Part shown: piece by piece, positions 33,472 to 35,646 of the stretch
Layout: every line of letters starts with the position of its first letter
Numbering within the stretch: the stretch's first letter is position 1
Assembly: GCF_003334405.1 (NCBI RefSeq)
Contig: NZ_QOWM01000004.1
Strand: one strand, 5' to 3'
From: Escherichia coli
GTDB lineage: Bacteria; Pseudomonadota; Gammaproteobacteria; Enterobacterales; Enterobacteriaceae
DNA length: 64,000 bases
Program-made: the position numbers and the translations under genes
The notes under the pieces: generated by a model
What the model saw: the letters and a program-made list of their open reading frames with translations, nothing else
Databases searched by the model: none
What the model was told of the DNA's origin: nothing

Positions 33472-34104
33472 TTATTTCACCAGTTCGGGCCATAAACGCA
33501 AAGTCGTTCCGGCAATCTGCATCAGTTTTTCCAGCGATGCACCTTCGCGTGCGCTGATCGACATCCCCTGAATAATACAATTAAGGAATTCTGCCAGATG
33601 TGTCACGTCACAGTGGGGCGGGATTTCCCCGCGCGCTTGTCGTTGACATAAAAACTGCTGCAAAGTGCGCTCTTGCATCGCATGGCGTGATTTCAACGTA
33701 TTGGCGATATCTCCTGAATCTGGGGAGAGGGTGGTGCAGTTGTTGATCATGAAGCAGCCTGCCGGGGTGTCTTTGCTGGTAAAGCAGTTGGCGATGGCAG
33801 CAAAATAGTCAGCCAGCGCAGACTCCACGCTTTTCTCTTCACAAAACAGCTGTGCTTCATGCTTAGCGGCAAAACGATCGATATAGCGGTCGAGAACGGC
33901 ACGAAATAACCCCTCTTTGTTGGTAAATTCCGCGTATAGCGTGGGCGCTTTGGCTCCGGTCGCTTCGACGAGGTCCGCAAGAGAAGTCGCTTCATAACCG
34001 TGTTGCCAGAACAATTTCATGGCCTTATCAAGCGCGGCATCCCTGTCGAACACTTTTGGGCGGCCACGGCTTTTTTTTACACATTGTGTTGAGTCAGTTG
34101 CCAT
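33472..34104 (-). CDS. comR: TetR-family transcriptional repressor ComR (YcfQ)
   Basis: ORF 33472..34182 trimmed to MATDSTQCVKKSRGRPKVFD (210 aa); TetR HTH. Confidence 0.85.
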   Translation of the reverse strand: MATDSTQCVKKSRGRPKVFDRDAALDKAMKLFWQHGYEATSLADLVEATGAKAPTLYAEFTNKEGLFRAVLDRYIDRFAAKHEAQLFCEEKSVESALADYFAAIANCFTSKDTPAGCFMINNCTTLSPDSGDIANTLKSRHAMQERTLQQFLCQRQARGEIPPHCDVTHLAEFLNCIIQGMSISAREGASLEKLMQIAGTTLRLWPELVK

Positions 34105-34259
34105 GATGCCGTTGTACCTGGTGACTGTGAATGAAAGGTTATTATAAAAATAATCACCTCCGTTCACCAGTCCAGATCCCATAAAAATAATTGCTTTCTA
34201 TTTAACTGAAATTTAAAGATTTTTAAATTAATTAATGATTGTTATAAAAAATATCTTGT

Positions 34260-34277
34260 ATGTGATCCAGATCACAT
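34260..34277. promoter_or_regulatory. perfect palindromic operator (CRP-type core TGTGA-N6-TCACA) in comR-bhsA intergenic region
   Basis: ATGTGATCcaGATCACAT, 8-bp arms exactly complementary, about 70 bp upstream of bhsA start; binding protein not established (CRP or ComR). Confidence 0.5.
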
Positions 34278-34344
34278 CTATCATTTAGTTATCGATCGTT
34301 AAGTAATTGCTTGCGACGTCATTCATCTGCATAAGGCCACTATT

Positions 34345-34602
34345 ATGAAAAACGTAAAAACCCTCATCGCTGCGGCGATTTTAAGCTCCATGTCATTTGC
34401 CAGCTTTGCGGCTGTCGAAGTTCAGTCAACGCCAGAAGGCCAACAAAAAGTCGGTACAATCAGTGCTAACGCGGGGACAAATCTGGGATCGCTGGAAGAG
34501 CAGCTGGCGCAAAAAGCGGATGAGATGGGCGCAAAATCTTTCCGTATTACTTCTGTAACCGGTCCGAATACCCTCCATGGAACAGCAGTAATTTATAAAT
34601 AA
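34345..34602 (+). CDS. bhsA: stress-induced outer-membrane protein BhsA (YcfR/ComC)
   Basis: 85-aa ORF with signal peptide, YdgH/BhsA family. Confidence 0.88.
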   Translation: MKNVKTLIAAAILSSMSFASFAAVEVQSTPEGQQKVGTISANAGTNLGSLEEQLAQKADEMGAKSFRITSVTGPNTLHGTAVIYK

Positions 34603-34641
34603 GCATTAACCCTCATTAATGCCTGCTACTGCTGATTTTTT

Positions 34642-34674
34642 CCCCGCGACATGCCGTGTCGCGGGGATTTTTTT
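34642..34674 (+). terminator. intrinsic terminator after bhsA
   Basis: CCCCGCGAC-loop-GTCGCGGGG hairpin followed by T7. Confidence 0.65.
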
Positions 34675-34683
34675 ATCCGGGCT

Positions 34684-35646
34684 TTACAGCGTTTGTGGGC
34701 TCACTTGATGACGGCGGACATCCACCGGCATCCCGGAACGGACATCCATCACATGTTGCATCACTTCAGCGTCAGTTTGTGCTGCATCTTTAAATGATTG
34801 CATTGCGCTATTCAGCGTAATTGGCAGCAGCTGCGGATCGTCATCAATCTTCTCTGACAGCGGCTGATGTACTTCAACCAGACGCGCACCGTTTGGTTCG
34901 GCAGAGACTTTTATCGGAGTGTTGATGATATTCACTTTGGTGCCTGGGGTGACCTGGCTAAAGAGTGTTTTGATATCGTCATCCCGCAGACGAATACAGC
35001 CAGAACTTACCCGCATGCCAATGCCGAAATCGGCGTTCGTACCATGAAGCAAATAAACGCCGCCATAGGCCGCCAGACGAATCGCATGATGGCCCATTGG
35101 GTTATCCGGTCCAGCCGGCACTACCGCAGGCAACTCAATTCCCTGTGCTTTATAACGGGCGCGGATGTTTGCCGTTGGCGTCCAGGTTGGGTTTGCACGT
35201 TTGTCTGAAACGGTGGTCACCATTGTCGGTGTCAGCGTGTCACCACCTAACTGACCAATACCTATTGGATACACGGTTACCGAATTTTTACCCGGCGGGT
35301 AGTAATAGAGACGCAGCTCCGCAATGTTGATCACAATGCCTTCGCGCGGCGCATCTGGAAGTAGGGTTTGCAACGGGATCGTTAACACGCTGCCCGCGCG
35401 CGGTACGTAAGGATCAACGCCGGGGTTAGCCTGTAACAGAGCGAGAAAGCCGACGTTGTATTTTTTGGCGATGGCTTCCAGAGAACCACCGTCATTTTCC
35501 ACCACATGAAATTTGTTTTCGCCAACCAGACGACTGCCCGCTGGCGGCAGCGGCCAGGTGTTGGCTTTTGCCGGTAGCGCCAGCGCCACGGCAGCGGCGA
35601 ACGTAAAAAACGTTAGCCAGCGAGAAAAACGCGTTTTGATCATCAC
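34684..35646 (-). CDS. ldtC: L,D-transpeptidase LdtC (YcfS)
   Basis: ORF trimmed to GTG (320 aa); signal peptide, LysM-like region and YkuD domain with SGCIRL catalytic Cys. Confidence 0.85.
   Translation of the reverse strand: MMIKTRFSRWLTFFTFAAAVALALPAKANTWPLPPAGSRLVGENKFHVVENDGGSLEAIAKKYNVGFLALLQANPGVDPYVPRAGSVLTIPLQTLLPDAPREGIVINIAELRLYYYPPGKNSVTVYPIGIGQLGGDTLTPTMVTTVSDKRANPTWTPTANIRARYKAQGIELPAVVPAGPDNPMGHHAIRLAAYGGVYLLHGTNADFGIGMRVSSGCIRLRDDDIKTLFSQVTPGTKVNIINTPIKVSAEPNGARLVEVHQPLSEKIDDDPQLLPITLNSAMQSFKDAAQTDAEVMQHVMDVRSGMPVDVRRHQVSPQTL

What the first reader, a model, noticed from the sequence alone, without database searches (positions are those of the whole stretch)
34255..34282. 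Exact 8+2+8 palindrome with a perfect CRP core in the comR-bhsA divergent promoter region
ATGTGATC-CA-GATCACAT has fully complementary arms and contains both consensus CRP half-sites TGTGA and TCACA with correct 6-bp spacing, about 70 bp upstream of bhsA and about 160 bp upstream of comR. Such an exact site is unusual. It could be a CRP site or the operator of the adjacent TetR-type repressor ComR.
Basis: seen in the sequence. Interest (0 to 1): 0.4.

Follow-up and report, generated by a model that had tools for sequence, protein, structure and literature searches.

The report
Known CRP site repressing bhsA promoter
The palindrome is a real, near-consensus binding site for the global sugar-starvation regulator CRP, sitting inside the core promoter of the E. 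coli stress gene bhsA; it is already recorded in databases and ChIP data, so it is ordinary.

Summary
The window is the E. coli K-12 ndh-ycfJ-comR-bhsA-ldtC-mfd region. ATGTGATC-CA-GATCACAT lies at 34260-34277, and its core TGTGA-N6-TCACA is the only exact one in 64 kb. It is a known CRP site. A published CRP ChIP-seq in ETEC lists exactly this motif for ycfQ/bhsA. A paper built on EcoCyc/RegulonDB puts CRP, ComR and bhsA in a type-2 incoherent feed-forward loop, and its cAMP dose-response array shows bhsA falling steadily to log2 -1.94. Among 107 motifs under ChIP peaks it scores highest.

In 72 Enterobacteriaceae comR-bhsA spacers, GTGA and GATCACA are nearly invariant. The central bases and the outer palindrome positions vary. 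That is the CRP pattern, not that of an 18-bp operator.

The bhsA start site, inferred from published nanoRNA-priming work (TTAT), is A34291. This puts the CRP centre at -22.5, between the -35 (TTGTAT) and the -10 (TATCAT), a geometry that gives repression by occlusion.

The ComR operator is more likely the invariant TATCGATCGTTAA box at -1 to +12, but this is inferred.

Verdict: observation confirmed, CRP reading supported, already known, low interest.

The parts
34260..34277 (.). Exact 8+2+8 palindrome ATGTGATC-CA-GATCACAT, the finding itself
   Evidence: Identical 60 bp around it in 5272 of 5422 E. coli genomes.
34258..34279 (.). 22-bp CRP site GTATGTGATCCAGATCACATCT with core TGTGA-N6-TCACA at 34261-34276. 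The centre, 34268.5, is at -22.5 from the bhsA start site.
   Evidence: ChIP-seq motif TGTGATCTGGATCACA (its reverse complement) at ycfQ/bhsA. Top matrix score. GTGA and GATCACA carry about 2 bits across 72 species.
34256..34261 (+). bhsA promoter -35 hexamer, TTGTAT in Escherichia and TTGACG in most other genera
   Evidence: Conserved block 17 bp upstream of the -10. Inferred.
34279..34284 (+). bhsA promoter -10 hexamer TATCAT (TATGAT in some genera)
   Evidence: Conserved. Lies 6 nt upstream of the inferred start site.
34291..34291 (+). Inferred bhsA transcription start (A within TTAT)
   Evidence: The bhsA promoter uses the UpA primer and has T at TSS-2 and TSS+1. TTAT at 34289-34292 is the only such tetramer downstream of the -10.
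34290..34302 (.). Box C, TATCGATCGTTAA, an 11/12 match to the palindrome TAACGATCGTTA, at -1 to +12. Candidate ComR operator.
   Evidence: Exact in 69 of 72 spacers, centred 26 or 27 bp downstream of the CRP centre in all 72. Function inferred.
34233..34244 (.). Box B, TAATGATTGTTA (a perfect palindrome TAACGATCGTTA in 8 species), at -58 to -47. Possible second ComR site, or part of an UP element with the A-tract at 34245-34250.
   Evidence: Present 29-31 bp upstream of the CRP centre in all 72 spacers (30 bp in 66). Function inferred.
34345..34602 (+). bhsA (ycfR/comC) coding sequence, 85 aa
33472..34104 (-). comR (ycfQ) coding sequence, 210 aa, TetR family
   Evidence: The ORF list extends it to an upstream ATG at 34182; the annotation uses 34104.
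34141..34146 (-). Conserved TATAAT on the minus strand, the likely comR -10
   Evidence: Block ATTATAAAAATAA conserved at 95% or more. Retained in loci that have lost bhsA. Inferred.

Best explanation
The palindrome is a very high-affinity canonical binding site for cAMP-CRP. It lies in the spacer of the sigma-70 promoter of bhsA: -35 TTGTAT at 34256-61, -10 TATCAT at 34279-84, start at A34291, and CRP centre at -22.5 covering about -33 to -12. When cAMP is high, a CRP dimer on this site blocks RNA polymerase and lowers bhsA transcription. When cAMP is low, for example with glucose, the promoter is free and is then controlled mainly by the copper-responsive TetR-type repressor ComR. ComR most likely binds a separate conserved box over the start site. 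Shown: the sequence, CRP occupancy in vivo in a close E. coli strain, cAMP-dependent decrease of bhsA mRNA, and conservation of the half-sites. Inferred: the exact start site, the occlusion mechanism, and the location of the ComR operator.
For: The sequence is an exact TGTGA-N6-TCACA. Its score is the highest of 107 CRP motifs under ChIP peaks. A CRP ChIP-seq peak in ETEC H10407 carries exactly this motif between ycfQ and bhsA, and its peak value of 4 is above most others shown in that supplementary table. A paper built on EcoCyc/RegulonDB classes CRP, ComR and bhsA as a type-2 incoherent loop, in which CRP acts as a repressor, and RegulonDB 8.5 has CRP and ComR sharing one promoter. bhsA mRNA falls steadily with added cAMP: 0, -0.24, -0.42, -0.96, -1.09, -1.66, -1.74, -1.94 log2. 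A secondary citation says an EMSA showed CRP binding upstream of ycfR. In 72 comR-bhsA spacers from Enterobacteriaceae the core is kept with 0-2 mismatches at the same place. GTGA and GATCACA carry 1.75-2.0 bits and the four central bases 0.5-0.8 bits. The conserved -35 and -10 flank the site with 17-bp spacing. The TSS context TTAT matches the published bhsA promoter description.
Against: No footprint or site-directed mutant of this site was seen in the papers I could read. The primary papers were not held (Zhang 2007, Mermod 2012, Deng 2011), and I never located Zheng 2004. The start site is inferred from a verbal description, not from a printed coordinate. The cAMP effect could be partly indirect. 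The simple promoter scan did not call the TTGTAT/TATCAT pair. The ChIP-seq was done in ETEC, not K-12, although the 60 bp around the site is identical in 5272 of 5422 E. coli genomes.
Confidence: 0.85

Rival explanations
1. The palindrome is the operator of ComR, alone or shared with CRP. ComR would bind it to repress bhsA and leave when copper is present.
For: ComR is encoded divergently. It represses bhsA and binds the bhsA promoter region in vitro, as reported in a review of Mermod 2012. TetR-family operators are usually palindromes that overlap the target promoter, and this is the most perfect palindrome in the spacer. I could not read the primary paper to see which sequence it proposed.
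Against: The 18-bp symmetry is confined to Escherichia. The outer left A is G in 59 of 72 species, and the centre varies freely. The conserved positions are exactly the CRP contacts. The review places the ComR site '60 bp upstream of comC', whereas the palindrome spans 68-85 bp upstream. An invariant, partly palindromic box lies at 43-55 bp upstream. ComR (YcfQ) ChIP-exo gave no peak here, and its three weak sites resemble neither motif.
Confidence: 0.07
2. CRP bound here activates transcription. It could act as a class II activator of a second bhsA promoter starting near 34310, or as an upstream activator of comR.
For: Most CRP sites activate. A start about 41.5 bp downstream (near 34310) would still lie in the bhsA leader. 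One array study listed ycfQ as up-regulated under glucose limitation and in stationary phase.
Against: bhsA falls steadily with cAMP, and the database-derived sign is repression. No acceptable -10 lies at 34298-34305: GTTAAG and TAAGTA lack the key -11A and -7T pattern. The conserved comR -10 puts the site near -134, too far for classical activation.
Confidence: 0.06
3. The palindrome is a chance match with no function.
For: Perfect 8+2+8 inverted repeats are not rare: the window holds 4, against about 1 expected.
Against: An exact CRP core is expected 0.07 times per window. It is conserved in position across about 70 species and is bound in vivo.
Confidence: 0.02

Closest known systems
Canonical CRP (CAP) sites of E. 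coli, consensus AAATGTGATCTAGATCACATTT, including the synthetic consensus site ICAP
   Same: Identical TGTGA-N6-TCACA core with 6-bp spacing. It differs from the 16-bp consensus at one central base (TCCAGA against TCTAGA). It is bound by CRP in vivo and scores highest among the ChIP motifs.
   Different: It lies at -22.5, inside the core promoter, rather than at the usual activating positions near -41.5, -61.5 or -92.5 (text). It therefore represses rather than activates.
CRP-repressed promoters where the site overlaps core promoter elements, listed in EcoCyc/RegulonDB (this point rests on my own knowledge)
   Same: Promoter occlusion by a single CRP dimer, with expression falling as cAMP rises.
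   Different: Here the same promoter also has a local TetR-type repressor, which gives the type-2 incoherent loop coded in the databases.
TetR-family operators of divergent regulator-target pairs such as tetR/tetA and acrR/acrAB
   Same: Divergent gene pair, and a palindrome in the shared spacer that overlaps the target promoter.
   Different: The conservation pattern of this palindrome matches CRP contacts and not a full-length operator. A separate invariant box is the better ComR candidate.

Membership tests
Canonical CRP binding site | Two half-sites TGTGA and TCACA separated by 6 bp within a 22-bp symmetric site | tested here: met
   Exact core at 34261-34276. Score 21.3 of 21.9 bits on a matrix built from ChIP motifs.
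Canonical CRP binding site | Occupied by CRP in vivo or in vitro | not testable with these tools
   Published evidence only. There is a CRP ChIP-seq peak with this motif at ycfQ/bhsA in ETEC H10407. An EMSA is cited second-hand.
Canonical CRP binding site | Expression of the adjacent gene responds to cAMP-CRP | not testable with these tools
   Published array: bhsA falls to log2 -1.94 with rising cAMP. The database-coded sign is repression.
Canonical CRP binding site | Across orthologous promoters the half-sites are conserved and the central spacer is free to vary | tested here: met
   In 72 spacers GTGA and GATCACA carry 1.75-2.0 bits and positions 6-9 carry 0.5-0.8 bits. The core has 0-2 mismatches everywhere.
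Canonical CRP binding site | Position relative to the start site fits a known CRP mechanism | tested here: met
   The centre is at -22.5 from the inferred start A34291, between the conserved -35 and -10. This is an occlusion geometry and matches the observed repression. The start site itself is inferred.
ComR (TetR-family) operator | The whole palindrome is conserved wherever the regulator and its target are conserved | tested here: not met
   The outer position A34260 is G in 59 of 72 species. Centre positions are variable. The 8+2+8 symmetry occurs only in Escherichia.
ComR (TetR-family) operator | Bound by ComR and released by copper | not testable with these tools
   A review reports that ComR binds the comC promoter, with the site '60 bp upstream'. 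This does not coincide with the palindrome. ChIP-exo showed no ComR peak at bhsA. The primary paper is not held.
ComR (TetR-family) operator | Palindrome overlapping the promoter of the divergent target gene | tested here: inconclusive
   This is true of the palindrome, and equally true of Box C at -1 to +12, so it does not discriminate.

The most novel reading that the evidence does not exclude
The CRP site and two flanking palindromic boxes form one conserved repression module. Box B (TAAYRRTCRTTA) lies about 30 bp upstream of the CRP centre and Box C (TATCGATCGTTA) 26-27 bp downstream, in all 72 species. The sharp DNA bend made by CRP at -22.5 would bring ComR dimers on the two boxes together. 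Carbon status would then set how tightly the copper and stress repressor closes the bhsA promoter. This would be a CRP-assisted repressor loop, loosely like CytR with CRP but built with a TetR-family protein.
Probability: 0.08. Interest if true: 0.45.

Novelty: already known. Interest (0 to 1): 0.1.

Why it matters
It matters little as a discovery. The CRP site at comR/bhsA is already in ChIP-seq tables and in EcoCyc/RegulonDB-derived networks. The modest added value is a clearer picture of the promoter. One of the best CRP sites in E. coli acts as a repressor site at -22.5 on a stress and biofilm gene. The ComR operator is probably a separate invariant box over the start site. Together these explain how glucose status and copper or oxidant stress combine to control bhsA.

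Tried and rejected
- The consensus promoter and terminator scan of 34050-34400 gave only two weak hits, neither relevant, and missed the conserved TTGTAT/TATCAT pair.
- An Rfam scan of 33900-34700 found nothing in the spacer. The only hits were sub-threshold ones on the bhsA terminator.
- I tested whether the invariant Box C reflects an RNA structure in the bhsA leader. RNAalifold gives only a weak 4-bp helix (-0.8 kcal/mol) with wobble changes and no compensatory changes, so that idea is not supported.
- I fetched the three published YcfQ (ComR) ChIP-exo sites (cspA, metR, uxuA) after converting coordinates. They contain neither a Box-like motif nor a good CRP core, so they say nothing about the operator.
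- Three primary papers were not held: Zhang 2007, Deng 2011 and Mermod 2012. I never located Zheng 2004, which I expected to be the source of the database entry.
- I considered a distal comR promoter using TATAAC on the minus strand at 34241-34246. I set it aside because C at the last position of a -10 is unfavourable, and the A-tract there fits an UP element of bhsA better.
- Several literature and collection queries failed for lack of capacity and were repeated.

Full report
**Locus.** The window matches E. coli K-12 at 100% identity over the region tested. The local genes are ycfJ, comR (33472-34104, minus strand), bhsA (34345-34602, plus strand) and ldtC. In NC_000913.3, comR is 1168200-1168832 and bhsA is 1169073-1169330, with a 240-bp spacer. 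The palindrome therefore sits at 1168988-1169005.

**Observation.** ATGTGATCCAGATCACAT is at 34260-34277. The arms are exact complements and the central CA is not. The core TGTGA-N6-TCACA is the only exact one in the window. Shuffles give 0.07 exact cores per window. Palindromy alone is not remarkable, since the window holds four perfect 8+2+8 inverted repeats against about one expected. The notable feature is the match to the CRP consensus. On a matrix built from 107 motifs under CRP ChIP-seq peaks, the site scores 21.3 of a possible 21.9 bits. It ranks first among those motifs, and the next site in the window scores 12.0. The matrix includes the site itself, which is a small circularity.

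**Already known.**
- Haycocks et al. 2015 list a high-confidence CRP ChIP-seq peak in ETEC H10407 with the motif TGTGATCTGGATCACA for ycfQ/bhsA. This is the reverse complement of the site here. The supplementary table gives it a value of 4, where most peaks shown have 1 or less.
- A study built on EcoCyc and RegulonDB classes CRP, ComR and bhsA as a type-2 incoherent feed-forward loop and says CRP acts as a repressor in that type.
- That study's cAMP dose-response array shows bhsA at 0, -0.24, -0.42, -0.96, -1.09, -1.66, -1.74 and -1.94 log2.
- RegulonDB 8.5 holds one ComR site and one promoter shared by CRP and ComR.
- bhsA was among the CRP-regulated genes profiled in another study.
- One paper cites Zhang 2007 for an EMSA showing CRP binding upstream of ycfR. 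I could not read that primary paper.

**Conservation.** A scan of one genome per species returned 80 comR loci. Seventy-one of them, plus the window, have the divergent comR-bhsA pair with a spacer of about 240 bp.
- In every one the CRP core is at the same place, 76-84 bp from the bhsA ATG, with 0-2 mismatches.
- Per-position information is 1.8-2.0 bits for GTGA and 1.75-2.0 bits for GATCACA. The four central bases carry 0.5-0.8 bits and the first T carries 0.6 bits.
- The outer palindrome position A34260 is G in 59 of 72 species. Most genera read TGTGAC...GGATCACA, so the 8+2+8 symmetry is specific to Escherichia.
- This is the pattern expected for CRP contacts, not for an 18-bp operator.
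- Within E. coli, the 60 bp around the site is identical in 5272 of 5422 genomes.

**Promoter geometry.** The alignment shows a conserved TTGACG (TTGTAT in Escherichia) at 34256-34261, followed after 17 bp by TATCAT at 34279-34284. The CRP site fills the 17-bp spacer between them.

Work on nanoRNA priming uses the bhsA promoter as a natural UpA-primed promoter with T at TSS-2 and at TSS+1. The start context is therefore TTAT. The only TTAT downstream of the -10 is 34289-34292. This puts the start at A34291, seven bases after the -10. That is an inference from a verbal description.

With this start the CRP centre is at -22.5 and the 22-bp site spans about -33 to -12. CRP bound there should exclude RNA polymerase, which agrees with the cAMP-dependent fall in bhsA. 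A class II arrangement would need a -10 near 34298-34305, and none is acceptable there.

**The ComR question.**
- The alignment shows a 13-mer, TATCGATCGTTAA (34290-34302, -1 to +12), exact in 69 of 72 spacers. It is an 11/12 match to the palindrome TAACGATCGTTA.
- A second, more variable copy, Box B, lies at 34233-34244. It reads TAATGATTGTTA in E. coli and is a perfect palindrome in 8 species.
- The two boxes sit about 30 bp upstream and 26-27 bp downstream of the CRP centre in all 72 spacers. Indels are rare in this spacer, so the fixed spacing is partly trivial.
- A review of Mermod 2012 says the ComR site is 60 bp upstream of comC and that ComR does not regulate itself. Box C with its flank TTAGTTATCGATCGTTAA starts 59 bp upstream of the ATG. 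The palindrome spans 68-85 bp upstream.
- I therefore assign ComR to Box C, as an inference.
- YcfQ ChIP-exo gave no peak at bhsA, and its three weak sites carry neither motif.
- An RNA-structure explanation for Box C is weak.

**Loci without bhsA.** Four loci (L058, L062, L072, L073) keep comR but have lost bhsA. They also lack the CRP site and Boxes B and C. They keep the comR-proximal block with the TATAAT on the minus strand. This ties the CRP site to the bhsA promoter rather than to comR. It does not separate CRP from ComR as the binding protein.

**Comparison and verdict.** The site meets the sequence, conservation and position criteria for a canonical CRP site. Published data supply occupancy and the cAMP response. 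It fails the full-length conservation expected of a ComR operator. It is already recorded, so novelty is 'already known' and interest is low. The least ordinary reading still open is that CRP bending cooperates with ComR bound at the two flanking boxes. I give that a probability of about 0.08.

Noticed in passing
window 34290-34302: The 13-mer TATCGATCGTTAA over the inferred bhsA start site is exact in 69 of 72 Enterobacteriaceae spacers. That is more conserved than the CRP site itself. It is the likely ComR operator but is not established as such.
   Followed up: partly
window 34233-34250: There is a second palindromic box: TAATGATTGTTA here, and TAACGATCGTTA as a perfect palindrome in 8 species. 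It is followed by a conserved A-tract at -50 to -41 of bhsA. It could be a second ComR site or an UP element.
   Followed up: partly
window 34130-34158: The comR-proximal block (consensus TTGAATAACCATTATAAAAATAAT) resembles the Box B region (TTTAACGATCGTTATAAAAAT) and contains the minus-strand TATAAT. It matches the palindrome well in some genera and is degenerate in E. coli. That would fit the report that E. coli ComR does not autoregulate.
   Followed up: partly
window 34256-34266: Escherichia differs from other genera in two linked ways. The -35 is weaker (TTGTAT against TTGACG), and the left CRP half-site is closer to consensus (TGTGAT against TGTGAC).
   Followed up: no
L058, L062, L072, L073 (upstream of comR at 1501): Four species keep comR but have lost bhsA together with the CRP site and Boxes B and C. 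In these loci comR lies next to the ldtC homologue.
   Followed up: partly
L076 and L080 (Kosakonia): Kosakonia sacchari and K. arachidis carry a second comR-bhsA module, with ComR about 69% identical. It has its own CRP-like site with one mismatch, so the whole unit was duplicated.
   Followed up: no
window 60089-60104: ATTGAACAGGATCACA is the motif listed for the (rluE)/icd CRP ChIP-seq peak in ETEC. It is the third-best CRP score in the window.
   Followed up: no
window 34264-34297: Three GATC (Dam) sites fall within 35 bp: two inside the CRP site and one inside Box C. The right-hand GATC and the Box C GATC are conserved in essentially all species. CRP or ComR occupancy could affect their methylation.
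   Followed up: no
window 34296-34316: There is a conserved short inverted repeat, TCGT...ACGA, in the bhsA leader. Pairing is kept in 66-71 of 71 sequences, and the variant pairs that remain paired are G-U wobbles with no compensatory changes. It could extend the operator or form a weak RNA hairpin.
   Followed up: partly
window 33522-33568 (inside the 3' part of comR): A ChIP-exo table for another candidate transcription factor lists a site at 1167473-1167519 (older coordinates) assigned to ycfQ. I did not identify which factor.
   Followed up: no
window 34104-34182: The mechanical ORF for comR extends to an ATG at 34182 (236 aa), whereas the annotation starts at 34104 (210 aa). The conserved TATAAT at 34141-34146 lies inside the longer ORF, which supports the shorter gene.
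   Followed up: partly
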